Source: Candidatus Parcubacteria bacterium
GTDB taxonomy: Bacteria > Patescibacteriota > Patescibacteriia > UBA1558 > GWA2-36-10
Assembly: GCA_018669975.1 (NCBI GenBank)
Contig: JABHSK010000001.1
Span: 152,394-216,393 of the forward strand
DNA: 64,000 bases
Reading direction: 5' to 3'
Positions 21,633 through 58,862 of this stretch are shown in pieces (position 1 is the stretch's first letter; every line of letters begins with the position of its first letter). Below the pieces are notes generated by a model. The model searched no databases. It saw nothing but the letters and a program-made list of their open reading frames with translations, and was not told where the DNA came from. The translations under genes were made by a program, and so were the position numbers.

Positions 21633-21715
21633 ATCTAGGAAAGGAGCCTCCAAAAAAATATTACGCAAGTCAATTCTTTCACAGAACGATTAACCAAACC
21701 TGAGGAGAACATACC

Positions 21716-22762: not shown

Positions 22763-22830
22763 TTCCTACTAACTCAAGTTCAATAAGTATTTAGTCAAAC
22801 AACCTTAAACCTCTAAAAGGAGGCTCAATA

Positions 22831-24389: not shown

Positions 24390-24453
24390 AACCCTCCCAA
24401 ACACATTGACCCGAAGTAATTTGTAATAACGAACCAAAAGAAGGGAAAAAACC

Positions 24454-25332: not shown

Positions 25333-25344
25333 AAGGAGGAGTCG

Positions 25345-26601: not shown

Positions 26602-26709
26602 TTATATTGGTGGTGACTCCGTGTCACCACCCTTTTCTCAAGTTACTTATGCATTAGGTGATTTAAGAGAAGTAAAAAGTTCATTCACAATTCACAGAAA
26701 GGAAAAACC

Positions 26710-27636
26710 ATGGCTACCATAGTGTATTCATGCCAAGGCATGCAAAATTTGTCCGACGACCTAGTAGGAACTGGCGTACAAGTTAGGCGAATTGACTGGA
26801 AAACGTTTAAGGATGGCTATCCGGACCTTATTATTCCTGATGTCCATGAAATCCGCGGCAATGACGTGGTTTTCCTGGCCAGCATGGAAAATCCCCAAAC
26901 CATCTTCGAACAACTATCAGTTATTTATGCCATACCTCGCTATGGCGCCCGTTCCTTGACCATTGTATTACCCTATTTCCCGACAGCCACCAAGGATCGT
27001 GTGGATGAGGAAGGTGAAATCTGCACCGCCAAAACTCTGGCGAGAATGTTTTCAGCTACTCCCTTGTCTATGCACGGACCGGCTCGTCTGGTGATGTTTG
27101 ACATTCATGCTCTGCAGGAAAGATTCTATTTCGAAGATACCATTATCCCGCAAATGGCTACGGCCATTCCTCTGCTCAAAAAGCAACTGGAAACGGATGC
27201 AAGTATCGCTATCGCCTTTCCTGATGAAGGTGCCTGGAAGCGCTTCCATCGTTTCTTTGAAGACTACCCGCAGATCATCTGCCACAAAGTCCGTCAAGGA
27301 GATGAACGCATCGTCACCATCAAAGAGGGTAATCCGCGTGGTTATCATGTAGTCATCGTCGATGATTTGGTCATGACCGGTGGCACTCTGGATGAGTGTC
27401 GCAAAGTTTGCATCGAAGCTGGCGCCAAGACTGTTAGTGCTTTTGTTACCCACCCGGTCTTTCCCCAAGAATCCTGGAAACGCTTTACTGGCAGTGGTCC
27501 TGATCAATTTAAGAATTTCTGGATCACAGATTCTTGCCCTGATACTATCAAGGCTATTAATCATGCACACCCCTTCAAACTTCTACCCCTGACACAGACA
27601 ATTCGTGATATAATAGATAGCGAAATAAGACACTAA
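26710..27636 (+). CDS. prs: Ribose-phosphate pyrophosphokinase (PRPP synthetase) family protein with an atypical N-terminus. It could be a canonical Prs or an ADPR-PP-synthetase-type paralogue.
   Basis: VMFDIHALQERFYFE (like DLHAEQIQGFFD), IAFPDEGAWKRF, the PRPP-binding loop VIVDDLVMTGGTL, and VSAFVTHPVF. Confidence 0.75.
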   Translation: MATIVYSCQGMQNLSDDLVGTGVQVRRIDWKTFKDGYPDLIIPDVHEIRGNDVVFLASMENPQTIFEQLSVIYAIPRYGARSLTIVLPYFPTATKDRVDEEGEICTAKTLARMFSATPLSMHGPARLVMFDIHALQERFYFEDTIIPQMATAIPLLKKQLETDASIAIAFPDEGAWKRFHRFFEDYPQIICHKVRQGDERIVTIKEGNPRGYHVVIVDDLVMTGGTLDECRKVCIEAGAKTVSAFVTHPVFPQESWKRFTGSGPDQFKNFWITDSCPDTIKAINHAHPFKLLPLTQTIRDIIDSEIRH

Positions 27637-27669
27637 CCAAGACCGCAAGGTCCAAGGAGGAATAAAATC

Positions 27670-28620
27670 ATGAGCAACACCACAGGTATCCTTAGCCGAG
27701 ATCAGATCCGCACAGTGGTCGATCGCGGTGCGCAGTCACTCCTCGATTACTGCCGACTACACAACATTCACTATCTGGTCACTGGTCAGTCCGGCGGTCT
27801 AGATTCGGCTGTTACTCTGGGTTTTGCCCAGCGAGCCTGCCAGTTGGCCGAGGCCAATAATTTTCAGTTGACTTCGGTCGGACTGATTATGCCCTGCCAT
27901 TCCGATGAATCCGCCGAACGCCTAGGTATGAAGGCTATTGAAAAGTTTGGTGCCAAGCAGATGATTATCGATCTGACACCAACTTTTGATCACGCTTTCA
28001 ACAACTCCTCATTGATGAGTCACACCGACATCCAGGTGCGGCAAATTCTTAAGGAAACCGGCGGAGACAAGTCGTTAACTGAATGGACCTGGTCCCAGAA
28101 GATCGCCCAGGGAAACATCAAGGCTCGTCTACGCATGATGTACGGCACCTATCACGTGGCTCGCATGATGCAGGGCATGGTTCTGTCCACTGACAACCTG
28201 TCCGAATTCTGGATGGCCTTTTGGACTATCAACGGCGATGTCGGTGACTACGGCATCGTTCAGCAGATTATGAAGGGTCTGGAACTCTACCAGATTGCCG
28301 AATATTTGGGTGTACCCGACGAGATTCTGGAAGCCAAACCCGATGACGGTCTCAATGTAGGTAACGGCGACGCCGATCAACTCGGCGCCGACTATCCAAC
28401 CATCGACCGCATTATGGTCCATCTAATCCAGCAAGGATTCGATCCCGACGGTTCCATGGATCAACTGGACGGGCTCCCAGCCATCGATGGCGTTCACTAT
28501 CACATCGTTCGCAGCATTGCCGAACGCTGTCTGCGTGGTGCATTCAAGCGCCACGGCACCATCATCCTTTCTCGTGAAAATCTGGATCTACCTCCTATCA
28601 AGGAGATCGTTCTGCCCTAG
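27670..28620 (+). CDS. nadE: NH3-dependent NAD+ synthetase.
   Basis: PP-loop LVTGQSGGLDSAV, NIKARLRMMYGTYHVA and STDNLSEFWMAFWTINGDVGDY show NadE family collinearity. Confidence 0.8.
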   Translation: MSNTTGILSRDQIRTVVDRGAQSLLDYCRLHNIHYLVTGQSGGLDSAVTLGFAQRACQLAEANNFQLTSVGLIMPCHSDESAERLGMKAIEKFGAKQMIIDLTPTFDHAFNNSSLMSHTDIQVRQILKETGGDKSLTEWTWSQKIAQGNIKARLRMMYGTYHVARMMQGMVLSTDNLSEFWMAFWTINGDVGDYGIVQQIMKGLELYQIAEYLGVPDEILEAKPDDGLNVGNGDADQLGADYPTIDRIMVHLIQQGFDPDGSMDQLDGLPAIDGVHYHIVRSIAERCLRGAFKRHGTIILSRENLDLPPIKEIVLP

Positions 28621-28646
28621 TGGTAAAATATGATCCGAATATAAAA

Positions 28647-28690
28647 CCCCGCCTGCGCATTCGCGCGGCGGGGCTTTTTCTTTGTTTTTA
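28647..28690 (+). terminator. Rho-independent terminator at the end of the NAD island. A near-identical copy lies at 56577-56615.
   Basis: ccccgcc-tgcgcattcgcgc-ggcgggg followed by ctttttctttgttttt. Confidence 0.7.
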
Positions 28691-33296: not shown

Positions 33297-33333
33297 AAAA
33301 AGCCCCGTCGTTGACGGGACCGATACTATTGAC

Positions 33334-33564
33334 TCAATTGGTCGCTTGTAGGAGACGCTTGTTCCAGCTTTGCCAGGTGGTATAACCACAATGCGTGCAC
33401 TTGTAGCCGACAGCACCACTGCTGTCCTGATCAAAGGAAACGTAGAAACCTTGCTCGCAATCGGGGCAAGCTCCGTTGTTCCACTCACGATTTTCCTGAT
33501 GCCTGGCCCAGATACAGCCGCCAATCATGGCAGCCAAAACTAAGATGGGTAGTACGATGAGCAT
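33334..33564 (-). CDS. Small membrane-anchored zinc-ribbon protein (hypothetical).
   Basis: An N-terminal transmembrane segment; CPDC...CTHCG. GC-rich, with a terminator hairpin downstream at 33296-33325. Confidence 0.5.
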   Translation of the reverse strand: MLIVLPILVLAAMIGGCIWARHQENREWNNGACPDCEQGFYVSFDQDSSGAVGYKCTHCGYTTWQSWNKRLLQATN

Positions 33565-33707
33565 GGACTTTCCTCCTGTTGAGATTGTCTGTGACTAGGA
33601 ATATATTGAACATAGAACTGCATAATATATACCAAAATAACACATTTGTCAATAATAAAAAGCCCCGCCGAGTTCACCTCGGCGGGGTTATATTTATCAA
33701 TCAAGAT

Positions 33708-35414
33708 TTAGCTCTTCTTAGCAGAAGAGGTGCGTCGTCGACCACTAAGGCGGTCTCCATGCACAATATTATGAACCATGAAACTCAAGGTCTCACTGAT
33801 AACGTTACCAACAATAGCTTCATTGTCATCGTTGCTTAGCATCAGCTGACTGATGGCAAAAGTAGCTACGGTCTCAATATAACGCATCAGACTGGTGTCG
33901 GTCTCTTCGCATTCGAACCAATAACGGTGACTCGTATTGAATGTCAACACGCCCGTCTTCATATCGAACTTGAAGGGCTCACCACTAGTGCCGACCTCAT
34001 CAAAGTCGAGCTGCAGACCAGTGGAATGTCCCCGAACCAGTTGGCGCCTATGGCCTTCCGGACCGGTAACAGTACCAGGCTGGTGCTCTGGCAGATCAGT
34101 GTCAGGCTCACCTCGGGATTCACCCTTGGCTTCAGAATTAGCCTTGTCCTGATTACCTCGGGTAGCCACTGACTTCTTCTTCTGCCTACCGACAGGCTTG
34201 GCCTTTTTATGGCCTGCACCAATAGTTCCAACCTTGAATTCCTTGATCAGATCACGCAGACCCTGGCTGTCGAGCAGACCTTCGACCACTTTGAGTGCTC
34301 TCAGTCCCAACTTCTGGAAGCGGGCTTCCCGAATGTGTGACTCGACAATGTCCAGGTGCTTCTGACCAATATCTTCAAACCATCTTTCAATACAGACACA
34401 CATACCAACTAGGGCGTCGTTAGCCACAAACCTTTTGCGACCAGCGTCCAATTCAACTCCCTGACAAGCAATTTCGCCTTCGAAAATGCCAGACCTGAGA
34501 GCCTGAATTGCCCCGTCGGACAAAATGCCGTCTATCGAATTCCAAAAAGATCTACTACTGCTAGGAATACGGAAATCATCTCCGATTTCTCCAAAGCAGA
34601 CGCTGCCCTTACGAGCACCACGCGGAGTCTTCTTGGCGATAAAAACGCGAAAGCGAGTTTCCCCACAATCTTCACTAACATAGACTGCCTCATCTAGAGG
34701 TCGTCCTTCATATTCTTTGGCCACTACTTGCAACTGAGCACGTACGTTGTCCTCACTGATAAAATCAATCTGCACTACCGTGTCAAGCTTGCGCATGACT
34801 GGACCAAACTTATCCAGAATCTGTTCAGCAAGATCCTGAGCAGTCATCCGGGTAATAGTCCGATCCTTAATAATGCCCCAAGCCTTAATCCTGGTGCGCC
34901 AAGGTACGAAGAAAGAATCTCCGGAACGATGACGTTTAGGGTTGGCACGAGTAGCATGATATTTGATCTGCGGCCGTTCCTTGAGAGGAATAGCACCAGT
35001 ATCACTCATACCACCGATATCACCAGTGTCGAATGTCCACTCCAAGAACCCAGTCTGACCAGGCGTCTTGCGGTAATGGCAAGACGTGAAGGTAAACTTT
35101 TCGCACTTACCCAAATATGAAATCATACCACGGCCCCAGCGACCCATCTTGTCGCGACTCTTCACGGTCTTACCGATTTGAGTCAGACACTGTTCGAATT
35201 TGACTCGGGTCACACCCTGGCCATTATCGACGATGTCCAAACCGCGTTTTTTAAGATTGATACGGATACCAATAAGCGTAGCCTTGGCGTCTAGAGCATT
35301 TTGAACTTGCTCCAGTGTCGCATCCAATAAAGATGGATAAGTACCGGCCACCATCATCAATATTTGACCAAGATTAACATTAATCGTACTTTGACTTCCT
35401 TTTTCAGGTGTCAT
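33708..35414 (-). CDS. GHKL-superfamily ATPase (MORC/HATPase_c_3-like N-terminus) with an uncharacterised C-terminal ~350-aa region.
   Basis: Bergerat-fold motifs QNALDA (N-box), DNGQGV (G1) and GKTVKSRDKMGRWGRGMIS (G2). GC-rich, with a terminator at ~33655-33695. Confidence 0.6.
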   Translation of the reverse strand: MTPEKGSQSTINVNLGQILMMVAGTYPSLLDATLEQVQNALDAKATLIGIRINLKKRGLDIVDNGQGVTRVKFEQCLTQIGKTVKSRDKMGRWGRGMISYLGKCEKFTFTSCHYRKTPGQTGFLEWTFDTGDIGGMSDTGAIPLKERPQIKYHATRANPKRHRSGDSFFVPWRTRIKAWGIIKDRTITRMTAQDLAEQILDKFGPVMRKLDTVVQIDFISEDNVRAQLQVVAKEYEGRPLDEAVYVSEDCGETRFRVFIAKKTPRGARKGSVCFGEIGDDFRIPSSSRSFWNSIDGILSDGAIQALRSGIFEGEIACQGVELDAGRKRFVANDALVGMCVCIERWFEDIGQKHLDIVESHIREARFQKLGLRALKVVEGLLDSQGLRDLIKEFKVGTIGAGHKKAKPVGRQKKKSVATRGNQDKANSEAKGESRGEPDTDLPEHQPGTVTGPEGHRRQLVRGHSTGLQLDFDEVGTSGEPFKFDMKTGVLTFNTSHRYWFECEETDTSLMRYIETVATFAISQLMLSNDDNEAIVGNVISETLSFMVHNIVHGDRLSGRRRTSSAKKS

Positions 35415-36145
35415 TCTTCCCTCCCTTTTTTATCTAGAGTTAACTTTCTCGATTCCTTACTACATAATCCGTGCAAAGCTTGGGCTGCATTATACAAACC
35501 ATCATCTGATATACTACGCCGCAATTGACGGCGATCATTATCAGAAAACTCATCTGACAAAACAGCTTGAGCTAAAGGCAAAAGAGCCTCTACTTGTCCC
35601 TTCAATGCCTGAAATATGGCATCACGTGAACTTTGTCTTAAGCTAGTAGGTAGCGATCGTTCAGTCCTCTGACTTGTTTTGAGAATAGGACGATCATTTA
35701 AACCAACGAAGTCTTCGGCTGGGTAACGTTTGAGTATAGCTTCGATCATAGCGAGCTTAGCTCTACCAGCATTGCAAACGTTATTAAGCACCGGAAAAAA
35801 TGAATCTCTGCCAGCATAACCTAATTTCTGACACGCTTCATCAAAAGACATCCGACCGATTGAAATAATCCATCCCAAAGACAGGACCTGTGGTGCCAAG
35901 TCTCTCAACTCAGCCACATCATATCCCCGACTATGGAGAAAATACTTCAACCGAATAAGATTTTTACCCGAGGGCATTTTTTTACCATTAAGCCAACGAT
36001 AGGCTAATGGATCAGAAGCTTTGCAGAAATCAGCCAAGGGTTTCCTGGCTGCCAATACTTGTGACTTGCCAGTTGGCAAGGTTCCTGCGTAATGATCCAA
36101 ACATTGTCTGGCATTACCTGAAAAATTAACGGGGGTTTTTCCCAT
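35411..36145 (-). CDS. Hypothetical protein, upstream partner translationally coupled to the GHKL ATPase.
   Basis: ATGA overlap with the downstream gene. Strong RBS gaaggagg and a TTGACA-N17-TAATTT promoter on the minus strand at ~36255-36287. Confidence 0.5.
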   Translation of the reverse strand: MGKTPVNFSGNARQCLDHYAGTLPTGKSQVLAARKPLADFCKASDPLAYRWLNGKKMPSGKNLIRLKYFLHSRGYDVAELRDLAPQVLSLGWIISIGRMSFDEACQKLGYAGRDSFFPVLNNVCNAGRAKLAMIEAILKRYPAEDFVGLNDRPILKTSQRTERSLPTSLRQSSRDAIFQALKGQVEALLPLAQAVLSDEFSDNDRRQLRRSISDDGLYNAAQALHGLCSKESRKLTLDKKGREE

Positions 36146-47694: not shown

Positions 47695-47780
47695 AATTTT
47701 TATTAATTTAAAACAATAAGATATTAACAAAAAATAACTATTTTGTCAATTGTTTATCCTAATTTATCAAGTTTTATATA

Positions 47781-47809
47781 TTGACAATTTATATAAAATG
47801 TGCTATAAT
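47781..47809 (+). promoter_or_regulatory. Consensus sigma70-type promoter (TTGACA-N17-TATAAT) for the 47879 gene.
   Basis: Exact hexamers with 17-nt spacing. Confidence 0.5.
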
Positions 47810-47878
47810 ATGTACAGTTCATTAGAAAAGTAGGGAATTCACAAGGATTCCTGAACATAAGATTAGAAGGATCTAATT

Positions 47879-48370
47879 GTGTTAAAACCGAAAGGACTCG
47901 TCATGAAGACTATCATTATTTTGGCTCTGACCATCTGCGCGCTTATCCCCCAGTCGGGATATGCTGACGTTGAAATCATCGTCACCCCCACCCCTGGCCT
48001 CTTTGGCACTTCTCACAACCTGAGTAATCAGGAAAGCACTAGTGTCAAATATATGCAAGTGGGCCGCGTGTCTATCTCTGACTTCGAAAACTACCAGTTT
48101 ACCGTTATCAAAAACGGAAAGAAGTTAGACGATATTATCCGCAAAAACACTGCCATTTTCTACACTGGTGACTACACCATCCAAGTCTTCAACCGTCAAA
48201 CCAAAGCTCTTGTAGCCACTGCCAAATTTAACAGCAAAGAAATGCTGAACGCCTGGCAGTTCATGCTATTAATTGCAGTTCTATTTGCGACTGTCATTGG
48301 CCTGTACCTACTTAAAGGTTTTATCGATAACGAACGCCTGGTACGCAGACGCGGCTGGCGACACCCTTAA
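47879..48370 (+). CDS. Hypothetical secreted/membrane-anchored protein.
   Basis: A signal peptide and a C-terminal transmembrane segment; GC-rich. A terminator lies at ~48384-48425. Confidence 0.5.
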   Translation: MLKPKGLVMKTIIILALTICALIPQSGYADVEIIVTPTPGLFGTSHNLSNQESTSVKYMQVGRVSISDFENYQFTVIKNGKKLDDIIRKNTAIFYTGDYTIQVFNRQTKALVATAKFNSKEMLNAWQFMLLIAVLFATVIGLYLLKGFIDNERLVRRRGWRHP

Positions 48371-48452
48371 ACAGATCCTTGTCGAGGTCCTGTTCGGCTA
48401 CTACGCCGAGCGGGACCTCTTTTTTTCCTTATTTTTTAAGTATTTCATACTA

Positions 48453-48481
48453 TTGACAAAAATATGAATATATGATATAAT
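48453..48481 (+). promoter_or_regulatory. Consensus sigma70-type promoter (TTGACA-N17-TATAAT) for the 48581 gene.
   Basis: Exact hexamers with 17-nt spacing. Confidence 0.5.
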
Positions 48482-48580
48482 GCTTTATTCCCCTGGACAA
48501 TCTCGATAATACATATTTGCTGGGGAATTCGCAAGAACCTTAAAATCACTCAAAACGACTCTATCAGGAGGCACAAGCAC

Positions 48581-49261
48581 ATGGAAGCCAAAACCGAAAA
48601 AATCACCACCGTTGACACCACCGACACTCGAGAAAACCCCCGCCCTTTCACTGCCCTGCTTTTCTTTCGCAAGGAAGAGGAAGGAAACGCCACCGTCCTG
48701 CGCGCCGAATATGGCATGGGGCTCCCCCAGAGCTGCTACGTCTACGTCGACCAGGAGGACGATTCCCGCAACGGCATCCGTGAAGGATGGAACCTGGTCT
48801 GGGTATCGATCAAGCTGACGGCCGGCAAGGCCTACGCTCGCATCGTCAAGAAGGAGGACGCTCTCCGCTATCGCCTGCAGTGCCTGGTCGCACAGCAAAA
48901 GCTGGCGGAAGCCAAGGCTCCCAAGGTGGCTGACACCTCGGAAGACGAGAAGACCGTCCTGGCCATGCTGTTCGCCAAGAACACACCCTACACCGATCGC
49001 AAGAGCGGCAACACCACGGTGAAGCCGATCTTCAAGTACGGTCAGGGTATCGGGGGCCGCGGTGGTCACACCGTATTCGTCCACAAGGACGCCCTCGACA
49101 TGATCACCAACGAAGGCTGGTACCTGTGTGTACTGAATCGCAGTGCGCTGCGACTGAAGTACAGCTTCGCCAAGCCCTACCTGGTGAGTCAGTACATCGC
49201 CGAGATCATCGACGCCATGCAGGCGCAGTTGACTCGTTGCGGGTACTCCATGAGTTACTAG
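48581..49261 (+). CDS. Hypothetical protein.
   Basis: RBS caggagg; GC ~58%; no recognisable domain. The antisense ORF 48485..49084 is judged spurious. A terminator lies at ~49275-49315. Confidence 0.5.
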   Translation: MEAKTEKITTVDTTDTRENPRPFTALLFFRKEEEGNATVLRAEYGMGLPQSCYVYVDQEDDSRNGIREGWNLVWVSIKLTAGKAYARIVKKEDALRYRLQCLVAQQKLAEAKAPKVADTSEDEKTVLAMLFAKNTPYTDRKSGNTTVKPIFKYGQGIGGRGGHTVFVHKDALDMITNEGWYLCVLNRSALRLKYSFAKPYLVSQYIAEIIDAMQAQLTRCGYSMSY

Positions 49262-49349
49262 GAAACTCCTAGTACAGACAACCGGTTCCGCAAGACATCT
49301 TGCGGGGCCGGTTTTTTCATTGTTTAAAAAAGACTCCCTCGAAAGGGAG

Positions 49350-49703
49350 TCACTTGGGAATTCCAGTAAAAAAGGCTACTAACCACAAGGCCCAGGCCCA
49401 CACTGAATACTTAGTAAACAATTCTTGGCAACGCCCTCCTCTAGCTAATGAGTCTACGGCCCACAATAAATGGATCAACATAATAACTAAAGCTAACAAG
49501 CCACAAAAGCTATGCAAATGAAGAGCAAAACCTCCGTTTTGATAACCCATCATAGTGGTGCCGATAATATCGCATATCAAGGCTAGAACAAATATAATGA
49601 GCATCCAAGGCATTAGACGTTTTTTGATTTTCTCTGACCAAATGGCCGTGGTGTATAGCAGTAGAGCAAGTGCTATAAACAGAATGGCTACAGGCATGAT
49701 CAC
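49350..49703 (-). CDS. Hypothetical small polytopic membrane protein.
   Basis: 3-4 transmembrane segments with His residues in the helices. A terminator hairpin at ~49325-49355 (gactccctcgaaagggagtc) sits between convergent genes. Confidence 0.45.
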   Translation of the reverse strand: MIMPVAILFIALALLLYTTAIWSEKIKKRLMPWMLIIFVLALICDIIGTTMMGYQNGGFALHLHSFCGLLALVIMLIHLLWAVDSLARGGRCQELFTKYSVWAWALWLVAFFTGIPK

Positions 49704-49871
49704 CTCCTTGAGAATATTTTGAAATAACCCTAATAATAAGCTTATTATAATCCTTTAAGCCAATAAAGCAAGCTTATTATCGTTGACAAAATAGCTAAAA
49801 AATGATATACTTATACATTCGCAATGGCGAAGTTTAGAGAACCTTAAAAACCTCAGAGAAAGGGAAAACAC

Positions 49872-50711
49872 ATGCGCAAGTTGAGCATCACTCTATTCCT
49901 AATCACCGTCCTCGCTCTTCCCCTGACAGCTCTGGCTGCCCAACCCGACAGCCTGCAGGTCTACGCCTTTGGTGCCAACACCAACACCTTCGAACAGAAA
50001 GAGGCTGGTTACCACCAATTCGACTGGACCCGTGCTGGCTTCCGTGCCTACAAGAACGACTTCATGTTTCGTGTGGAGTACGACTACAGCTCAAGCTCCA
50101 TGAAATACTCCTACCTGGAGTACAGTCGGTCATATCACAACTGGAAGCTCGGCGGTCAGTGGGGCAAGTATCTCATCCCGGTGATGTACAATTACCCCGG
50201 ACCCTCCACACGCCCGATGCCTCGCTGGGGCTATGCTATCAAAGACGTACCGGTCTACGGTACTGGAATGTCGGCATATGCCAAACGCGACTGGTTCAAG
50301 CTCCAGGTTGGTCAATTTGACTTCGACGACTACGTCGTCAATGTCCAGGCTGGCCCGATTCGCGCCTGGTGGATCAAGGATCAAGCTCAGGGCATGTTCC
50401 TGAAACAATCCCTGCACCCCTGGCTAAATCTGTTTGCTGGCTGGACCAACTACGAAGATCACTCCAATCGTAAGTTCCCAGAACGTCGCAACGCGGCCTT
50501 CGTGCAAAATCACGTTCGCCTGAGTGATCGGGTACGAGTATTCATGCACCAAGACTTCGGTGACTTCAAAGGTGCCTTTATCGGCGGACTGAGCTACTCG
50601 CTCTTTACCAACGATGTGGAAAACACCATCGGCATCTTCTATGACACCGACAACTTGTGGCAGGCTCGCGTCACTTTCAGCTTCAGTCAAATATTCCGAC
50701 TGGAATCCTAA
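49872..50711 (+). CDS. Secreted beta-rich (porin/beta-barrel-like) protein.
   Basis: A signal peptide (ALPLTALAAQP), alternating aromatic/hydrophilic beta-strand patterning and a Tyr/Trp-rich composition. A TTGACA-N17-TATACT promoter lies at 49783-49811. Confidence 0.45.
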   Translation: MRKLSITLFLITVLALPLTALAAQPDSLQVYAFGANTNTFEQKEAGYHQFDWTRAGFRAYKNDFMFRVEYDYSSSSMKYSYLEYSRSYHNWKLGGQWGKYLIPVMYNYPGPSTRPMPRWGYAIKDVPVYGTGMSAYAKRDWFKLQVGQFDFDDYVVNVQAGPIRAWWIKDQAQGMFLKQSLHPWLNLFAGWTNYEDHSNRKFPERRNAAFVQNHVRLSDRVRVFMHQDFGDFKGAFIGGLSYSLFTNDVENTIGIFYDTDNLWQARVTFSFSQIFRLES

Positions 50712-50723
50712 GGAGGTCTTCCA

Positions 50724-51056
50724 ATGCCTAATATCATGATGATCGGATTCGATGGTAGTGAATACGAAGAAAAAAAGGCTATCATCGACGCCACCATGCA
50801 GAAACTCGGTTTGGGTGATGATGCTGTCACTACCCACTTTGGTCGAAACAATGTCGACAGTCGAATTGGCTGCCTGGTCACCTCTTGTTGCGGTCAGCGT
50901 ATCAACAGCCCATACATCGTGGTCCGTTCCACTGGTGGAATGAAAGAGATCGACATGATCATAGCGGCCCTCAAGGCCAATAATATCGGTGTCGATTGCG
51001 AAAAACAATCCCTTCCTGAGAATGGCTTCATCGAAGCCAATGACATGAGGAGCTAA
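50724..51056 (+). CDS. Small hypothetical protein.
   Basis: taaggagg RBS 7 nt upstream. A terminator lies at ~51066-51100. Confidence 0.4.
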   Translation: MPNIMMIGFDGSEYEEKKAIIDATMQKLGLGDDAVTTHFGRNNVDSRIGCLVTSCCGQRINSPYIVVRSTGGMKEIDMIIAALKANNIGVDCEKQSLPENGFIEANDMRS

Positions 51057-51192
51057 AGCTCTGTATGACGGCCGAACCCCCTGGGTTCGGCCGTTTTTTA
51101 TTACCTTAATATATTGACAAACACATACTTTTATGATAATTTGCCAAGTCTATTTGGATCCTTAAAAACTTTCAACCAAAGGAAGGTAAAAC

Positions 51193-52320
51193 GTGAAAAG
51201 AAAGCCTGCATTGAGAAACCTGCGCCAGTTCATCGAACTGATGGTGTCTTGTAATGTTAATGACCACCAATCTTGGAAAGCTTTTGCTGTAGAATATAAA
51301 CCTGAAATTGGCCGTTTATTTGGCTACTCACAAGACGAAGGCTTACCATCTATCACTTCTGTGGTTAAACCATTTTTCCATCCTGAATTACCGCTAATTG
51401 GCTTGAACTACACGCCAGTAGCTCATAACACTCTACACGCCTTTCCTCAGGGCTGGACTGATGAGCTTAGGCTCTGCCGAGGCATTATTTTTGACCGTAA
51501 TGGTCAGCTAGTGGCCCTGCCGTTTCCTAAGTTTTTCAACTATGGCGAGCACCCGGAAACTCAAGATATCCCTGACCTACCTTTTGAGGCTACTCTCAAA
51601 CAGGATGGACACCTAGGAATTATTTTCCGTTATCAGGATAAATTTATTCTGACTACTCGTGGCTCTTTTAAGAGTAATAGCTCTCTCTTGGGCAACCGTA
51701 TGTTATCTCGCTATGTACGAGAAAATAACTGGCAACGTCATTTTCCGACCAATCTAACTCTACTGGTGGAAATCATCCACCCAGATACTAAGGTTTACGT
51801 CGACTATGACGGCCAAAAGCAATTCACTATTATCGGCGCTAATAGCACGGCTACTATGGCTGACTATGGTTATAAGCGTTTGCTGAGCTACGGTAAAAAA
51901 TTGAATTTGGAAGTATCCCCTATCTGGACTGGTCGTTCTGTCAATGACCTGGTGGAATTGATGAAAGATCGTTCAGTGGAAAATACTGAGGGTTACGTAA
52001 TTCGTTTCCAAAACGGATTACGCGTCAAGGTAAAATTCCAAACTTACATAGGTTATATGGTAGCTGACAAACTCAGCTTCACCTATCTGATGAATCGGAT
52101 GATCAGTGGCAACCTGGAAAGGATGCTGTCTACTCTACCCGAGGAAATCTATCAGATAGCTCTGGAAATGTTGGGTCGTACCATGCTGCTCCTAAGTACG
52201 CCTGGTACAGCCAAAGAAAAATGGCGCCAGCTCTATACACTGGTACCATCTGAGCAATCAACATCCTATTTCCAATTAATCTGCCGCAAGTTCGTCAAAC
52301 ACATGACTAATACGGCCTAA
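51193..52320 (+). CDS. ATP-dependent RNA/DNA ligase-like nucleotidyltransferase (Rnl-like).
   Basis: KxDG motif I (TLKQDGHLGIIF), motif III-like LLVEIIHP, motif IV-like DGQKQFTIIG and motif V-like EGYVIRFQNGLRVKVK. Confidence 0.5.
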   Translation: MKRKPALRNLRQFIELMVSCNVNDHQSWKAFAVEYKPEIGRLFGYSQDEGLPSITSVVKPFFHPELPLIGLNYTPVAHNTLHAFPQGWTDELRLCRGIIFDRNGQLVALPFPKFFNYGEHPETQDIPDLPFEATLKQDGHLGIIFRYQDKFILTTRGSFKSNSSLLGNRMLSRYVRENNWQRHFPTNLTLLVEIIHPDTKVYVDYDGQKQFTIIGANSTATMADYGYKRLLSYGKKLNLEVSPIWTGRSVNDLVELMKDRSVENTEGYVIRFQNGLRVKVKFQTYIGYMVADKLSFTYLMNRMISGNLERMLSTLPEEIYQIALEMLGRTMLLLSTPGTAKEKWRQLYTLVPSEQSTSYFQLICRKFVKHMTNTA

Positions 52321-52330
52321 GGAGGTAAAC

Positions 52331-52546
52331 ATGAGCGTTTCTTTAACCACAAACAGCCACGGAGAACTCCAAGGCTGTGGCTTTAATGGCGCGGATACTC
52401 GCACCGTACATATCGGTGAATATGAAATCCCGCTGGAGGAATTCTGCGGTCTGGCTGCTGCCATTCTTGGTGGCGGCATGGTCGGCTGGAGAGGCCAAAA
52501 GCCTGAGTGCGTTGAAAAGGCTGTCGAATTAATCAACAGCCGTTAA
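52331..52546 (+). CDS. Small hypothetical protein.
   Basis: ctaaggaggtaaacATG RBS. A terminator lies at ~52560-52592. Confidence 0.4.
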   Translation: MSVSLTTNSHGELQGCGFNGADTRTVHIGEYEIPLEEFCGLAAAILGGGMVGWRGQKPECVEKAVELINSR

Positions 52547-52589
52547 ACTTTCCTTTTATTGCCCCGAACATCAGTTCGGGGTTTTTATT

Positions 52590-54983
52590 TTACTTAAATG
52601 CCTCTAGCCAACCAAAGGTCTCTTCTACATTCCTCATAATGACCTGGAAGACTGATTCTTGTTGTTTAGGTGTTAAAATTGTATAAGTTCTTGATCTAGA
52701 TGAATTACCTTCAGTATCAGTACTCTCTACTTGGAATCTATAGATAGCACCTGGATTAAAGTTAGTAATAACTACTACATGATGCCTAGCATAGTTTTCA
52801 TCTCTTGGACTAGTTTTAGTAAGTTCTTCACCTGCATTACCTGCTCCTTCTTCATAATACACTCTAGAGGTAGATGGTTCATTGGTATACCAAGAGATAA
52901 TAGCTTGTACTTTAGTTTCTTTACCTAGAGAAAGAGCTGCGTCTGTCTTTACTTGTCTGATAATAGGTGGAAGATTGTCATCGCTGGTAGCGAAAGAAGG
53001 GATAGTTTGGGCGATTGTACTATCATTTTGGGTGTTTCCATACATCTCTACCTGATACAACACACCTGCCTCTAAACCATCAACTGTTAATTGATGAATA
53101 GTGGTAAGTATTTCGTTCTTTTCTGTGCGTTTATCTTCCACTGCTAAATTGCCGCCTTTATATGGTGTATAACTAACATTAGAATCAGTTGGTACGGTAG
53201 TCACCCATTTAAATACTACTTCTTCAGTAGAAATTATATCGGTAGTATAACTTTCTATCTCAGCCAATTCCGCTAAAGTAACAAAACTAAAATCTTTTGA
53301 TTTAGCTGAAGCACCGCTAGGGCTTTCACTCTCAATATTGTAATGATAGATTGCTTCTGGCTCTAAACCAATTAAATTAACCTCATGTGTATTAGTAAGA
53401 GCATCTAAGTCACCCAGTGTATGTTCGTAGTCTACATTGTTTTCATAATAATTAGCGCTTGCATAACTAACTATTGAATTTGACTCTTTGTCTGTAGTCC
53501 AACCAATGGAAGCCGCACTAGCCCCAACTGTCAGCGCAGGTTCTCCTGAAATAATTGGTGGTGGTACAAAACTAGCCAAATCTGAAACATGCTCTATCAC
53601 ACCACTTTTGAATGTTCCCAAAGACACCTCAGAAGACATCTTTTCAAAGAAACTAGTAGCTTGTTCAACCGTGTTTAAAAAACTATCATCAGTAGCAGTG
53701 CCTTCGCCTTCACCTTCACCGCCATCAAGTCCTCCATCTCCACTATCAGCTAAAAATGATCCTGTAGAAAATGTAGCTTCTTCGACTTCTCCGATATTAC
53801 CACCGGTATCAATAGCTAATACTTTATATTTATAAATAGTTTCTGGTAATAGTCCTGTGATATTCATTTCATGAAGTCTGGTAGCCTTTTCTAGTGCTTT
53901 AGAGCTAATAATAGAGTTTTCATCTGTATTATCTACACCAAATTGTATTACTGAGATAGCGTTCTCACTAGTTTCCCAAGTAATCTTGGCTAAATCTGAA
54001 TCTTCACTACTAACATTAACTTTAGTAATCTTAGGTGCAATCCAATCTCCTGAGCTACCACCACCTCCGCCGCTACAAGAAAAACCTTCCAAAGCTACGT
54101 CAGCAGCTGTACCTTCTCTGAGCACCACCTCTGCTTCAGTAGATAGTTGTTCTAGGGTAGTAAACTCTGTTCCTACTGTACTAGTAGCGCTGTTACCTGA
54201 CTGGTCGACTGAAGTAACTACATAGAAATATCTAGAGCTGTTAGCTAAAGGAGTAATCACTATGCTGTGGGAAATATTGTAATCAGACGTCACTCGTGTA
54301 GAGCTAGTATATACACCTTCGACACTACCAAAGTATACCTGTGAATTAGCTGCCTCGTCTGTAGTCCACTCTATTACCACATCGTCGTCAGTAATCACAT
54401 CAGTAGCCACAGAAGTAATAACTGGTGCTACAGAATCTGAGGTAGTATTGAAATAATAATAATCTCCACCATTATTATCTGTAGCAACTCCTGATTTAAC
54501 GTAAAAATAATATTTAGTCCCTAAAGTCAAATCGGCAATATCCACAGAGTGTTCTTTTACTGAATCAGTATCAGTAGGCGTCACTGTATATCCACTCATA
54601 TCTGAGTTAGTAGAATAATACACCGTAGAATCTGAATTTATGTCTGTATTCCAAGTAATAGTAACTGTAGTATTTTGTACTGCTGAAGCAGAGGTGTTGG
54701 ATATAGCTGGACCAGCTAGCGTGGCAAAAGAATAACCATCACCACCACTGTTGTCGGTAGCTACGGCATTACTAGGATCAGCTGATTTTGCCTGATAATA
54801 ATATGTAGTATTAGGAGTTAACCCAGTTAACACAACTGAACGAGTAGAGGTGGTCATGGTGGTTACACTATCTTCATGTGCGTCGAGCCCTACGCTCGTC
54901 ACGTCCAAGAAATACCCTTTGACCTCGAGGCTATCGAGGCTATCCCGATCAAGATGAACTGGAGACAAGATATCGATGACCAC
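52590..54983 (-). CDS. Large surface protein with tandem fibronectin type III-like repeats. It lacks a signal peptide and is probably 5'-truncated.
   Basis: Low-GC gene with a repeated ...TxxYYY(V)KS...D..GN.. FN3-like periodicity (e.g. TKYYFYV, SRYFYVV, TIYKYKV, AIYHYNI, AIYRFQV). The first ~30 codons lie in GC-rich DNA. Confidence 0.7.
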   Translation of the reverse strand: MVIDILSPVHLDRDSLDSLEVKGYFLDVTSVGLDAHEDSVTTMTTSTRSVVLTGLTPNTTYYYQAKSADPSNAVATDNSGGDGYSFATLAGPAISNTSASAVQNTTVTITWNTDINSDSTVYYSTNSDMSGYTVTPTDTDSVKEHSVDIADLTLGTKYYFYVKSGVATDNNGGDYYYFNTTSDSVAPVITSVATDVITDDDVVIEWTTDEAANSQVYFGSVEGVYTSSTRVTSDYNISHSIVITPLANSSRYFYVVTSVDQSGNSATSTVGTEFTTLEQLSTEAEVVLREGTAADVALEGFSCSGGGGGSSGDWIAPKITKVNVSSEDSDLAKITWETSENAISVIQFGVDNTDENSIISSKALEKATRLHEMNITGLLPETIYKYKVLAIDTGGNIGEVEEATFSTGSFLADSGDGGLDGGEGEGEGTATDDSFLNTVEQATSFFEKMSSEVSLGTFKSGVIEHVSDLASFVPPPIISGEPALTVGASAASIGWTTDKESNSIVSYASANYYENNVDYEHTLGDLDALTNTHEVNLIGLEPEAIYHYNIESESPSGASAKSKDFSFVTLAELAEIESYTTDIISTEEVVFKWVTTVPTDSNVSYTPYKGGNLAVEDKRTEKNEILTTIHQLTVDGLEAGVLYQVEMYGNTQNDSTIAQTIPSFATSDDNLPPIIRQVKTDAALSLGKETKVQAIISWYTNEPSTSRVYYEEGAGNAGEELTKTSPRDENYARHHVVVITNFNPGAIYRFQVESTDTEGNSSRSRTYTILTPKQQESVFQVIMRNVEETFGWLEAFK

Positions 54984-55069
54984 AACGCTGGTAAAATCAA
55001 AACTTTATGCCGGCACGATGGATAAAAAATTATTGGGCCGTTGTCAAACAACGGCTCTTTTTATTTATA

Positions 55070-55098
55070 TTGACAAAATACATAAAACATAGTATATT
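55070..55098 (+). promoter_or_regulatory. Consensus-like promoter (TTGACA-N17-TATATT) directly downstream of a terminator hairpin at 55035-55065.
   Basis: Exact -35 with 17-nt spacing. An insulated cassette arrangement. Confidence 0.45.
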
Positions 55099-55163
55099 CA
55101 TTAGATTTTCCGTACACTTCATATTATTTACTTCATCCAAACTCAAACCTAGGAGCGTAAATC

Positions 55164-55688
55164 ATGCGCAGAAAAACACCTCTTATACTCATTATTGTGG
55201 CTGTAATCGGCGTATTGGGCCTGATTGGCTACTACAACCTGCACACTGGTCGAACCGCATCCCGCCTCGGTGGCAAGGAACACCGTCAAATTCTGTCCGT
55301 GGAAAACATGGAAACCTTTATCAGTATCAGCTTTTCCAAAAAGGATGACTCCACCGTCAAGGACATCACTTTCCTGGCTGCTGATGGCTATCACTACACC
55401 AAAGAATTCAAGGATGTCAGTCCTCTCGAGGGCGTAATCCGCTGGATTCCTCATGGAGAGGAAAGTTCTGCTGTCCGCACTCGGGCTATTTCCCGCTGGA
55501 CCGGCAAAGCAGTCCACATGGAACTTCCCGATGATTTTAATCGGATGCTCGGTGTCGATGTCGACAGCGAAAACGGTTCCAAGAATGTGACTTATCGCAG
55601 CACTGATGGCAACATCTACTCCAAGGAATACCGCGACGGTTGGATTGACCGTAAATTCCAAGGCTGGATAGAAGTCAAAGGCAAATAA
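55164..55688 (+). CDS. Hypothetical membrane-anchored protein.
   Basis: An N-terminal transmembrane segment and aggag RBS. A terminator lies at ~55700-55730. The antisense ORF 55149..55718 is judged spurious. Confidence 0.5.
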   Translation: MRRKTPLILIIVAVIGVLGLIGYYNLHTGRTASRLGGKEHRQILSVENMETFISISFSKKDDSTVKDITFLAADGYHYTKEFKDVSPLEGVIRWIPHGEESSAVRTRAISRWTGKAVHMELPDDFNRMLGVDVDSENGSKNVTYRSTDGNIYSKEYRDGWIDRKFQGWIEVKGK

Positions 55689-55804
55689 TATCCTTATACA
55701 GGGTGGCCCACGGGTCACCTTTTTTTATTGACATACTAAGCAATTTATTGTAATTTATACTAATTCACTTTGAACTTTTAAACCCTAAACTGGAGGTAAT
55801 ACAA

Positions 55805-56572
55805 ATGAAATGGCCACGTACCCTAACACTGATTCGACATGATGTATCACAATATAATCTTCTCAAAGAAACCAAATTGGCTGACCCACTTTATCAGCGC
55901 CTACTAAAAGCTTTTGAAGAAGATCCGAGTGGCCGACAAGCCAAACAATTGGCCGAAGAAATTGGCCATCGTTTTGCTGTCACCGTCAGTGACGCTCATA
56001 CTCCTTTGGCTGTAGAAGAGAGTCAACAGGCTGTAGCCACTGGCAAAGCCTTGGCCGGCAGGCAAGCCTTGCCTGACATTATCTTTGTCTCTCCCTATCT
56101 CAGGGCCAAGCAGACCCTACAGGCATTATGTGTAGGCTGGCCTGAACTAGCCACAATCAAAGTCGTTGAAGATGAACGTATTCGCGAACAAGAACATGGC
56201 TTATCGCTACTCTATGACCGTAAGGTCTTTTTCATCCTCTTCCCTGATCAACGCATCTTGCATAGCCGTGAAGGTTCTTACTATTATCGTTTTCCACAAG
56301 GTGAAAACATGCCTGATGTCCGGCTGCGTAATCGCTCTTGGTTAGGAGCTCTAGCCAGAGATTTTGGAGCCATGAATGTCATGTGTGTCACCCATCATCT
56401 CAATATTTTAGGCACCAGAGCCAATCTGGAGCGACTGTCTGCTGAAGAATTCCAACGCCTCGATGAAGACGAAAAACCCATTAATCTGGGTGTTACTACT
56501 TATTCTGGTGATCCCCAAGCTGGTCGAGACGGACACCTGATTCTCAGTGGTTACAACGAAGCCCTTTATTAA
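55805..56572 (+). CDS. Histidine phosphatase superfamily (phosphoglycerate-mutase-like) protein.
   Basis: N-terminal LTLIRHDVSQYN (RHG-like motif) and a second His in MCVTHHLNIL. Confidence 0.5.
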   Translation: MKWPRTLTLIRHDVSQYNLLKETKLADPLYQRLLKAFEEDPSGRQAKQLAEEIGHRFAVTVSDAHTPLAVEESQQAVATGKALAGRQALPDIIFVSPYLRAKQTLQALCVGWPELATIKVVEDERIREQEHGLSLLYDRKVFFILFPDQRILHSREGSYYYRFPQGENMPDVRLRNRSWLGALARDFGAMNVMCVTHHLNILGTRANLERLSAEEFQRLDEDEKPINLGVTTYSGDPQAGRDGHLILSGYNEALY

Positions 56573-56576
56573 AAAT

Positions 56577-56615
56577 ACCCCGTCTGCGCATTCGCGCGGC
56601 GGGGCTTTTTCTATT
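56577..56615 (+). terminator. Rho-independent terminator, near-identical to the one at 28647-28690.
   Basis: ccccgtc-tgcgcattcgcgc-ggcgggg followed by ctttttctatt. It shares a 27-nt core with the NAD-island terminator. Confidence 0.7.
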
Positions 56616-58538: not shown

Positions 58539-58862
58539 GTTTAAAACACCTTATTTTATTTGGTGTTTTTGTTATTTTATCATTGACAAGTATAGGTTTT
58601 TCTGGTATGATTAATTAGCTTCTTAAGTAGTTTAATATAAAAATATATTAAAAAAGATCAACTAAAAAAATTTGCAGCTGGGCAATCTAGATATTGTCAA
58701 AATTGCGGAGTAGAATCCAGCGAATTATTTGAAGTTACTAAAAATATTCACAAAAAAGATCAACTGCTATATTGTATTAATTGTAAAAATACGCATATAA
58801 AATAATCTAACTACGCTGCCTATCAAAAAAAGCCTCACCGTTTGGTGAGACTTTTTTGTTAT

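What the first reader, a model, noticed from the sequence alone, without database searches (positions are those of the whole stretch)
47760..56615. Cassette-like island: individually insulated genes, each with its own consensus promoter, AGGAGG RBS and terminator, interrupted by a native low-GC gene
From 47.8 to 52.6 kb and 55.0 to 56.6 kb, eight GC-rich plus-strand genes are organised as self-contained units (seven proteins, several secreted or membrane-anchored, plus small ORFs). The repeated unit is TTGACA-N17-TATAAT/TATACT, then an AGGAGG RBS, the ORF, and a GC hairpin with a T-run. At 55035-55098 a terminator sits immediately upstream of the next promoter. This moron-like, insulated organisation differs sharply from the compact native operons and suggests phage/plasmid-derived cargo or non-native DNA.
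Basis: seen in the sequence. Interest (0 to 1): 0.55.

Follow-up and report, generated by a model that had tools for sequence, protein, structure and literature searches.

The report
Conserved GC-rich autonomous gene units, Parcubacteria
A stretch of a marine Parcubacteria chromosome carries GC-rich accessory genes, each packaged with its own strong promoter and terminator; it is natural and conserved in related species, not a recent phage, plasmid or engineered insert, and its persistent GC-richness is unexplained.

Summary
Between 47.8 and 56.6 kb, eight plus-strand genes with third-codon-position GC (GC3) of 0.39-0.79 lie in a genome whose native genes have GC3 of 0.22-0.32. They form six transcription units with TTGACA-N17 promoters (two match 12/12, two 11/12, two 9/12), Shine-Dalgarno sites and strong hairpin/T-run terminators.

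The window is a chromosome segment of a marine Candidatus Parcubacteria genome. At least eight independent assemblies span the junctions.

The interpretation as phage/plasmid cargo or non-native DNA is only partly supported.
- Related species carry the same genes in the same order next to rplU, with the same elevated GC3.
- Promoters are conserved, and terminator stems show compensatory changes, although native synonymous sites are near saturation.
- No phage, plasmid, integrase or defence signal was found.

The low-GC FN3 gene is the newcomer. It truncated a cassette gene, leaving a 54-codon remnant and the orphan terminator at 55035-55057.

Whole units (promoter, leader, ORF, terminator) sit at different genome positions in relatives.

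Products include a predicted 16-strand porin-like barrel, an Rnl1-type RNA ligase, a histidine phosphatase and membrane-anchored orphans.

A leader motif, CCTTAAAA, is shared only by GC-rich genes. Why the GC-richness persists is unresolved.

The parts
47781..47809 (+). U1 promoter: TTGACA-N17-TATAAT (12/12) with TGn. It is divergent from the rplU promoter.
   Evidence: conserved in relatives
47903..48370 (+). U1 ORF, 155 aa, with a signal peptide and a C-terminal transmembrane anchor. Orphan. GC3 0.55.
   Evidence: orthologues in L006/L009
48384..48419 (+). U1 intrinsic terminator
   Evidence: 5 of 13 stem pairs show compensatory changes
48453..48481 (+). U2 promoter, 12/12 with TGn
48535..48545 (+). 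Leader motif GAACCTTAAAA in the U2 5' UTR
48581..49261 (+). U2 ORF, 226 aa, an orphan with an internal duplication. GC3 0.79 (0.86-0.90 in relatives).
49280..49313 (+). U2 terminator
49350..49697 (-). HsmA-family membrane protein, 115 aa, GC3 0.42, with its own Shine-Dalgarno site and its own terminator at 49332-49351
49783..49811 (+). U3 promoter: TTGACA-N17-TATACT (11/12) with TGn
49839..49849 (+). Leader motif GAACCTTAAAA in the U3 5' UTR
49872..50711 (+). U3 ORF, 279 aa, with a signal peptide. Predicted 16-strand porin-like beta-barrel.
50724..51056 (+). U3b ORF, 110 aa, co-transcribed with U3 and preceded by AAGGAGGT
51067..51095 (+). U3 unit terminator
51114..51142 (+). U4 promoter: TTGACA-N17-TAATTT with TGn (9/12)
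   Evidence: the same promoter and leader occur in L015
51157..51167 (+). Leader motif GATCCTTAAAA in the U4 5' UTR
51193..52320 (+). T4 RnlA (Rnl1)-type RNA ligase, 375 aa. Motifs KQDG, EGYV and KVK can be read in the sequence.
52331..52546 (+). 71-aa ORF co-transcribed with the ligase
52561..52582 (+). U4 terminator
52590..54983 (-). Low-GC FN3-repeat gene (annotated as 797 aa). It has no signal peptide or Shine-Dalgarno site and begins inside an FN3 domain. It is a later insertion or rearrangement.
54858..55025 (+). 3' remnant (54 codons, 81% aa identity) of the 168-aa cassette gene that precedes U5 in relative L099
55035..55057 (+). Orphan terminator of the truncated gene, abutting the U5 promoter
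55070..55098 (+). U5 promoter: TTGACA-N17-TATATT (11/12)
55164..55688 (+). U5 ORF, 174 aa, anchored by an N-terminal transmembrane segment (a lipoprotein-like signal in the distant homologue L016)
55700..55721 (+). U5 terminator
55728..55756 (+). U6 promoter: TTGACA-N17-TAATTT (9/12)
55805..56572 (+). Histidine phosphatase superfamily protein, 255 aa
56574..56612 (+). U6 terminator. It is a 39-nt repeat, 95% identical to the terminator at 28643-28681 that ends another GC-rich block.

Best explanation
This is a natural, lineage-conserved strip of accessory genes in the chromosome of a marine Parcubacteria (CPR/Patescibacteria) lineage. It is built from six autonomous transcription units. Each unit has a sigma-70-type promoter of the host's own strong kind (TTGACAAA...TGnTAnnAT, as used for its tRNA genes), a 45-100 nt leader, a Shine-Dalgarno site, one or two GC3-rich ORFs and a strong intrinsic terminator.

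Because each unit starts and stops its own transcription, it is expressed independently of its neighbours. It can therefore be gained, lost, truncated or moved as a whole without polar effects, and comparison with relatives shows that this has happened.

The products are mainly envelope or secreted proteins: a signal-peptide/transmembrane orphan, a porin-like beta-barrel and a membrane-anchored protein. There is also an Rnl1-type RNA ligase and a histidine phosphatase.

The GC-richness most likely goes back to old acquisitions from GC-richer sources. It has since been held up by a gene-specific force, either selection on the mRNA or codons, or continued recombinational exchange with GC-biased repair. 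It is not the mark of a recent insertion.

Shown: the anatomy, conservation, synteny, relocation of units, the rearrangement scar and stable GC3.

Inferred: strong independent expression, the ancient foreign origin, and the cause of GC maintenance.
For: Identity of the source: the proteins match NCBI MBT66909xx, Candidatus Parcubacteria. The flanks hold DnaB, YbaB, RecR, rplU, ArgRS, DnaJ/DnaK and tRNAs.

Not an artefact: at least 8 independent assemblies span Rnl-71aa-FN3-U5-U6. L002 spans rplU-U1-U2.

Synteny in relatives: the order DnaB-YbaB-RecR-rplU(-)-U1-U2-HsmA(-)-U3-U3b...U5-U6 is seen.

GC3 is kept per gene across lineages:
- U2: 0.79, 0.90, 0.88, 0.86
- U3: 0.68, 0.65, 0.57
- U1: 0.55, 0.57, 0.61
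- U5: 0.55, 0.57

Meanwhile, four-fold degenerate sites of the native genes are only 44-58% identical (44-50% for DnaB, YbaB and RecR), which is near saturation for this composition.

Regulatory elements are conserved. The -35 and -10 boxes, TGn and Shine-Dalgarno sites are invariant in relatives. Terminator stems are kept through compensatory changes.

Units move whole:
- The Rnl unit, with the same promoter and the ATCCTTAAAAAC leader, lies beside dnaN in L015.
- A U3 homologue with a 12/12 promoter and the same leader lies beside RND pump genes in L111.

Freshwater relatives carry a different single GC-rich unit at the same site next to rplU.

Rearrangement scar: the remnant at 54858-55019 plus the orphan terminator.

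The codon shift is not the host's expression-linked bias. DnaK and L21 are T/A-ending.

Across the window, GC-rich genes have stronger Shine-Dalgarno sites (17/22 against 10/38) and stronger promoters (5/22 against 0/38 at 11/12 or better).
Against: There are no expression data, so promoter strength, transcription start sites and termination are inferred from sequence and conservation only.

The leaders do not fold better than shuffled sequence.

No donor lineage was identified. The RNA ligase family is itself common in Patescibacteria, so 'foreign' is unproven for at least that gene.

The amelioration argument rests on rough saturation estimates. My parsimony polarisation test is biased by skewed base composition.

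Cassette genes have higher four-fold-site identity than native genes (0.63-0.78 against 0.44-0.50). This fits either synonymous-site selection or more recent exchange, and I cannot separate the two.

Only 64 kb of a genome of at least 0.84 Mb (the longest contig carrying these genes is 844,504 bp) was seen.
Confidence: 0.6

Rival explanations
1. Recent foreign insertion. The strip would be cargo of a prophage (morons), plasmid or integrative element that entered this genome lately and has not yet ameliorated.
For: The composition is atypical at all codon positions. The units are autonomous and moron-like. The RNA ligase belongs to a family named after phage T4. Gene content between U3b and U5 varies among relatives.
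Against: The same genes lie in the same place in at least 3 related species whose native synonymous sites are near saturation. No integrase, transposase, att repeats or phage structural genes are present. No hits were found in phage or plasmid DNA collections or in IMG/VR. The promoters are of host type and conserved.
Confidence: 0.07
2. A dedicated expression class kept by selection. GC-rich coding sequence, strong promoter, strong Shine-Dalgarno site, strong terminator and the shared CCUUAAAA leader would together give abundant, long-lived or co-regulated mRNAs. GC-richness would then be a functional property, for example resistance to AU-specific RNases or a distinct translation regime.
For: All 5 intergenic CCTT[TA]AA[AC] sites in the window lie 28-43 nt upstream of start codons of GC-rich genes, in two separate islands. 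The motif is conserved in relatives. GC3 is stable per gene across lineages. Four-fold sites are more conserved in cassettes than in native genes. Strong Shine-Dalgarno sites occur almost only in GC-rich genes.
Against: The motif is absent from U1 and U5 and from the cassettes of freshwater relatives. Leader folding is not significant. GC1 and GC2 and amino-acid usage are shifted too, which selection at the mRNA level alone does not predict. There are no expression data.
Confidence: 0.25
3. Recombination hotspot. The units would be exchanged often among related Parcubacteria by homologous recombination in conserved flanks. GC-biased gene conversion or repeated re-import would keep them GC-rich.
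For: The site next to rplU holds different GC-rich units in different relatives. Units are found at different loci. A 39-nt terminator is duplicated at 95% identity between two islands. A 55-nt repeat lies upstream of two promoters in L016/L017. Cassette synonymous divergence is lower than native divergence, although protein divergence is higher.
Against: There is no direct evidence of recombination tracts. As far as I know, reported effects of GC-biased conversion in bacteria are small compared with a GC3 shift from 0.25 to 0.8-0.9. AT-rich promoters inside the same tracts stay AT-rich.
Confidence: 0.2
4. Assembly chimera, or synthetic or engineered DNA.
For: Textbook consensus promoters, AGGAGG sites and strong terminators are present, and GAATTC/GGATCC sites occur in some leaders.
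Against: The same arrangement appears in many independent assemblies from several projects. Diverged orthologous versions with compensatory changes exist in other species.
Confidence: 0.01
5. An integron-like cassette array.
For: There are co-oriented short units of unrelated genes, each followed by an inverted repeat, and content varies between relatives.
Against: No IntI-type integrase or attI is present in the 64-kb window. The inverted repeats are ordinary GC hairpins with T-runs that differ in sequence. The units carry their own promoters.
Confidence: 0.02

Closest known systems
Phage morons: autonomous promoter-ORF-terminator units of atypical GC between prophage genes (Hendrix/Juhala concept; from my own knowledge)
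   Same: Each unit has its own promoter and terminator and atypical base composition. Units lie between unrelated genes, can be present or absent between relatives, and move as whole units.
   Different: There is no prophage here. The strip is chromosomal, between rplU and dnaJ/dnaK. It is conserved in synteny across species and shows no phage homology.
Horizontally acquired genomic islands undergoing amelioration (Lawrence and Ochman model; from my own knowledge)
   Same: Base composition is atypical at all codon positions. The genes are accessory or orphan, and content varies between relatives.
   Different: The strip is GC-richer than the host rather than AT-richer. It has no integrase, tRNA target or direct repeats. 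GC3 does not decay between lineages whose native synonymous sites are near saturation.
Integron gene cassettes
   Same: Short co-oriented units of unrelated function, each followed by an inverted repeat.
   Different: There is no integrase, attI or attC. Each unit has its own promoter, and the repeats are intrinsic terminators.
T4 RnlA (Rnl1) RNA ligases and RNA-repair gene pairs
   Same: U4 matches PF09511 and T4 Rnl1 structures and carries the KxDG, EGYV and KVK motifs. A phosphatase gene is a conserved near neighbour.
   Different: The protein scores far below the NCBIfam equivalog cut-off (40 against 242 bits). The neighbour is a histidine phosphatase, not a Pnkp-type kinase-phosphatase. 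No activity was tested.
General diffusion porins of diderm bacteria (OmpF, OmpT, Rhodobacter porin)
   Same: U3 has a signal peptide and a confident predicted 16-strand barrel (pLDDT 89). Foldseek gives E of about 1e-6 and TM-scores of 0.5-0.64 to porins.
   Different: There is no sequence-family match. The host phylum is generally regarded as lacking an outer membrane. The family is tiny, with 47 representatives among 1.84 billion proteins.

Membership tests
Phage moron | Lies within a prophage or phage genome | tested here: not met
   The flanks are DnaB, RecR, rplU, DnaJ and DnaK. There are no phage genes and no phage DNA or IMG/VR match.
Phage moron | Autonomous unit with its own promoter and terminator and atypical composition | tested here: met
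Integron cassette array | IntI integrase, attI site and attC recombination sites | tested here: not met
   No integrase domain occurs in any ORF of 12-60 kb scanned with Pfam. The hairpins are dissimilar GC stems followed by T-runs.
Mobile genomic island (recent HGT) | Atypical base composition | tested here: met
   GC3 of 0.39-0.79 against 0.22-0.32
Mobile genomic island (recent HGT) | Integrase or transposase, flanking direct repeats, insertion at a tRNA gene | tested here: not met
   None was found. The nearest tRNA gene is 1.6 kb beyond the end, past another gene.
Mobile genomic island (recent HGT) | Absent from close relatives | tested here: not met
   The strip is present in synteny in the L006, L009, L013 and L099 lineages. 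Only the middle segment differs.
Intrinsic (Rho-independent) terminators | GC-rich stem-loop followed by a T-run, with the stem kept in evolution | tested here: met
   compensatory pairs. Termination itself was not measured.
Sigma-70 extended -10 promoters | -35 and -10 hexamers at 17-nt spacing with TGn, conserved, and a mapped transcription start | tested here: inconclusive
   Sequence match and conservation are met. No transcription start or expression data are available with these tools.
T4 RnlA-family RNA ligase (PF09511 / TIGR02308) | Pfam domain above its cut-off, with nucleotidyltransferase motifs I, IV and V | tested here: met
   PF09511 scores 67 bits against a cut-off of 28.3. KQDG, EGYV and KVK can be read. 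PDB T4 Rnl1 matches at E = 2e-11.
T4 RnlA-family RNA ligase (PF09511 / TIGR02308) | NCBIfam equivalog score | tested here: not met
   40 bits against a cut-off of 242. The protein is a family-level relative only.
Histidine phosphatase superfamily, branch 1 | PF00300 above its cut-off, with the RH...H catalytic core | tested here: met
   52.3 bits against a cut-off of 21.7. RHD and THH can be read. No equivalog is reached.
General porin (16-strand outer-membrane beta-barrel) | Signal peptide plus a 16-strand barrel fold | tested here: met
   Model pLDDT is 89.3 and pTM is 0.82. Foldseek matches porins. This is a prediction only.
General porin (16-strand outer-membrane beta-barrel) | Sequence membership in a porin Pfam family, and residence in an outer membrane | tested here: not met
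   No Pfam or NCBIfam hit was found. Localisation cannot be tested here.

The most novel reading that the evidence does not exclude
These marine Parcubacteria maintain, by selection, a second class of genes with its own expression grammar. That grammar is GC-rich and C-ending codons, strong Shine-Dalgarno sites in a genome that otherwise hardly uses them, consensus extended -10 promoters, strong terminators and a shared CCUUAAAA leader element. The class would encode interaction or envelope functions, including a porin-like barrel in a phylum thought to lack an outer membrane. It would be shuffled as plug-and-play units without any dedicated mobility enzyme.
Probability: 0.2. Interest if true: 0.7.

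Novelty: new variant of a known kind. Interest (0 to 1): 0.45.

Why it matters
If the reading is right, compositional islands in CPR genomes cannot be taken as recent foreign DNA, because here they are old, conserved and compositionally stable. That matters for detecting horizontal transfer, for binning and decontaminating MAGs, and for models of amelioration.

The strip also gives a clean natural example of modular, insulated transcription units being rearranged without mobility genes.

It points to concrete candidates for the surface biology of an uncultured episymbiont lineage: a porin-like barrel, membrane-anchored orphans, and a neighbouring RNA ligase and phosphatase.

The shared leader motif offers a testable handle on gene regulation in CPR bacteria, about which little is known.

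Tried and rejected
- **U2 structure prediction.** With 4 sequences the model gave pLDDT 33, so no fold could be called. A sequence search of U2 against PDB found nothing.
- **U3 in GTDB.** A scan of GTDB genomes with U3 found nothing, because the genus is not among the species representatives. The alignment A6 was too divergent for a viral scan.
- **Terminator repeat.** A metagenome scan for the 39-nt terminator repeat gave only one short contig, so I could not show that it is a genome-wide repeat.
- **Leader folding.** z-scores ranged from -1.6 to +0.6. Small 5' hairpins exist and co-vary in U1 and U2, but a structured leader is not statistically supported.
- **Polarised third-position substitution counts.** Native genes gave a mirror-image excess of 'AT>GC', which exposes the known parsimony bias under skewed composition. 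I therefore use only the stability of GC3 across lineages, not these counts.
- **Host translational selection as the cause of C-ending codons.** Rejected, because DnaK and L21 are T/A-ending. Part of the C3 excess over G3 follows the strand skew seen in native plus-strand genes.
- **Rfam.** Nothing beyond tRNAs at gathering score, and only sub-threshold terminator-like hits in the island.
- **PADLOC.** No hit for any cassette protein.
- **Literature.** Three full-text searches found no paper on GC-rich gene classes, cassette organisation or porins in Parcubacteria.

Full report
**What the window is.** The 64-kb window has about 36% GC. It carries ordinary bacterial housekeeping genes: ArgRS, DnaB, YbaB, RecR, rplU, DnaJ, DnaK and seven dispersed tRNA genes. 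Exact protein look-ups place it in a marine Candidatus Parcubacteria MAG (NCBI MBT66909xx, locus tag HOB10_) and on an 844,504-bp JGI contig.

**Checking the observation.**
- Native genes have third-position GC (GC3) of 0.22-0.32.
- The eight plus-strand ORFs between 47.9 and 56.6 kb have GC3 of 0.39-0.79.
- The intervening FN3 gene has 0.25, and the intergenic DNA is AT-rich.
- The promoter scan finds two perfect TTGACA-N17-TATAAT sites with TGn, at 47781 and 48453. These are the only 12/12 sites in the window. It also finds two 11/12 sites at 49783 and 55070.
- U4 and U6 have a consensus -35 but a weak -10 (TAATTT).
- Terminator-like sites are 27 against 10.1 +/- 3.0 expected.

The description is therefore correct, with these amendments:
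- There are six units for eight genes, because two units are bicistronic.
- An exact AGGAGG precedes only three ORFs.
- A minus-strand HsmA-family gene sits inside the first block.
- Near-consensus promoters are native to this genome, since others sit in front of tRNA genes.

**Not an artefact.** Independent assemblies from several projects (ENA, JGI, Logan) span rplU-U1-U2. At least eight span Rnl-71aa-FN3-U5-U6-482aa.

**Not recent cargo.** U2 has only three homologue clusters, at 71-75% amino-acid identity. Their contigs show the same order: DnaB-YbaB-RecR-rplU(-)-U1-U2-HsmA(-)-U3-U3b. A 560-kb contig of a relative continues this order to U5, U6, the 482-aa gene and dnaJ.

In these relatives the native genes are again AT-rich and the cassette genes again GC-rich. 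U2 has GC3 of 0.86-0.90, U3 0.57-0.65 and U1 0.57-0.61. Four-fold degenerate sites of DnaB, YbaB and RecR are only 44-50% identical between the window and L006 (58% for rplU). That is close to saturation for this base composition.

Yet the -35 and -10 boxes, TGn and Shine-Dalgarno sites of U1, U2 and U3 are invariant. The terminator stems are kept through compensatory changes: 5 of 13 pairs for U1, and 5 of 25 pairs across the U2 and HsmA terminators. The signals are therefore functional and old.

Other tests for a phage or plasmid origin were also negative.
- blastn found no meaningful phage or plasmid match.
- No relatives of U2, U3 or U5 were found in IMG/VR.
- The only informative PHROG match is the RNA ligase family.
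- PADLOC returned nothing for the cassette proteins.
- There is no integrase or transposase.

**The units behave as modules.**
- In one relative, the RNA ligase unit (75% identity) lies next to dnaN. It has the same promoter and the same leader (TTTTCGATCCTTAAAAAC...AAGGTAAATCGTG) and is GC-richer than its neighbours.
- In another relative, a U3 homologue with a 12/12 promoter and the same leader lies just after RND efflux genes.
- Freshwater relatives (DnaB 77-78% identical) keep DnaB-YbaB-RecR-rplU. At the same spot they hold a single, different GC-rich unit with a TTGACAAAAA...TGnTAnnAT promoter, a Shine-Dalgarno site and a terminator.
- A more distant relative has Rnl-170aa-HisPhos adjacent, upstream of dnaJ/dnaK. 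The closer L099 lineage has three other genes where the window has the ligase unit and FN3.

**The rearrangement scar.** Window positions 54858-55019 (+) encode the last 54 residues, at 81% identity, of the 168-aa gene that precedes U5 in L099. The hairpin at 55035-55057 is that gene's terminator.

The FN3 ORF has no signal peptide or Shine-Dalgarno site and begins inside an FN3 domain. Its annotated start runs antisense into the remnant. So the 'native low-GC gene' is the intruder. The terminator that abuts the U5 promoter is an orphan.

**What the genes encode.**
- U1: a signal peptide plus a C-terminal membrane anchor.
- U2: an orphan with an internal duplication. Its structure prediction failed.
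- U3: a signal peptide and a confident 16-strand barrel model (pLDDT 89). The model matches general porins at E of about 1e-6 and TM-scores of 0.5-0.64. The family is very small.
- U4: an Rnl1-type RNA ligase with intact motifs. This family is common in Patescibacteria.
- U5: an N-terminally anchored protein.
- U6: a histidine phosphatase.

**Composition.** The shift affects GC1, GC2 and amino-acid usage as well as GC3. It does not follow the host's expression-linked bias, because DnaK and L21 are T/A-ending. Part of the C-over-G excess follows the strand skew.

The stability of GC3 across near-saturated divergence argues against simple unameliorated recent transfer. I cannot tell selection from continued exchange or biased conversion. 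Cassette four-fold sites are more conserved than native ones (0.63-0.78 against 0.44-0.50), although the cassette proteins diverge faster.

**A shared leader motif.** All five intergenic CCTT[TA]AA[AC] sites in the window lie 28-43 nt upstream of start codons of GC-rich plus-strand genes. Three are here, and two are in the separate GC-rich block at 18.9-28.6 kb. The motif is conserved in relatives. Its role is unknown, and leader folding is not significant.

Across the window, strong Shine-Dalgarno sites occur in 17 of 22 GC-rich genes against 10 of 38 native genes. Relatives' native genes also mostly lack them.

**Verdict.** This is a real, natural and conserved strip of autonomous, insulated transcription units carrying GC-rich accessory genes. 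It is moron-like in architecture but chromosomal and old. It has documented module turnover and an unexplained, stable compositional difference. It is of moderate interest. The porin-like protein and the shared leader motif are the most promising leads.

Noticed in passing
window 18895-28620 (+): A second and larger GC-rich block (GC3 0.47-0.75) lies behind a native NrtR gene. It holds PP2C, a kinase-like gene, two orphans, NUDIX, NAPRTase, a PRPP-synthetase-like gene and NAD synthase. It is organised more like operons, without near-consensus promoters. The NrtR-PP2C adjacency and an elevated GC3 (0.45) recur in relative L111.
   Followed up: partly
window 28643-28681 and 56574-56612: A 39-nt terminator (CCCCGYCTGCGCATTCGCGCGGCGGGGCTTTTTCT) is 95% identical at the 3' ends of two separate GC-rich blocks. 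Each copy faces a convergent native gene. The relative L099 has a different terminator after the phosphatase gene. A metagenome scan found only one more contig.
   Followed up: partly
window 33297-36145 (-): A third GC-richer block lies on the minus strand. It has a small ORF (33339-33575) with an 11/12 promoter (33652-33624) and its own terminator. It also has a 568-aa HATPase_c_3 protein (weak PADLOC restriction-enzyme hit) and a 244-aa gene.
   Followed up: partly
window 22803, 23741, 48538, 49842, 51160: The motif CCTT[TA]AA[AC] occurs in intergenic DNA only 28-43 nt upstream of start codons of GC-rich plus-strand genes. It is conserved in relatives, and its function is unknown.
   Followed up: partly
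window 49872-50711; L111 8001-8855; window 12990-17773: A porin-like 16-strand barrel is predicted in a Parcubacteria genome. In relative L111 a homologue sits directly after MFP and AcrB-type RND pump genes. The window also carries such a pump. This raises the question of an outer layer or a host-directed pore.
   Followed up: partly
window 11983-12501 (+): Another stand-alone GC-richer unit (172 aa, GC3 0.46) has its own TTGACT-N17 promoter, an AAGGAGGA site and a terminator. It lies between the RND pump and the aminoacyl-tRNA synthetase genes, which is where L111 carries the porin-like unit.
   Followed up: partly
window 47695-47735: The roughly 40 nt upstream of the rplU start codon are almost invariant across four lineages (40 of 41 alignment columns identical). 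They include the -10 box of the rplU promoter and a short leader without a Shine-Dalgarno site. The rplU and U1 promoters are divergent neighbours.
   Followed up: no
window 8335-9006: A 670-nt stretch has no convincing ORF, 43% GC and several strong hairpins. A plus-strand 11/12 promoter at 8953 points into the antisense of the next gene. No Rfam family reaches its threshold. It may hold an unrecognised structured RNA.
   Followed up: partly
window 58583-58855 (+): An 11/12 promoter with TGn and a terminator bracket about 230 nt. This stretch encodes a CxxC...CxxC mini-protein frame that lacks an ATG, GTG or TTG start.
   Followed up: no
L016 1700-1760 and L017 1-60: In a more distant relative, a repeat of about 55 nt (ATTGACCCGTTCGGCTACGCTCAGGGTCAATCCTGAGCCTGTCGAATGGATTGACAAA) lies directly upstream of, and runs into, the -35 box of both the RNA ligase unit and the phosphatase unit. 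It may be a propagated promoter module.
   Followed up: no
whole window; L018-L026: Native genes of this family mostly lack a recognisable Shine-Dalgarno site, whereas the GC-rich genes have strong ones. Most native genes are on the minus strand, and most GC-rich units are on the plus strand.
   Followed up: partly
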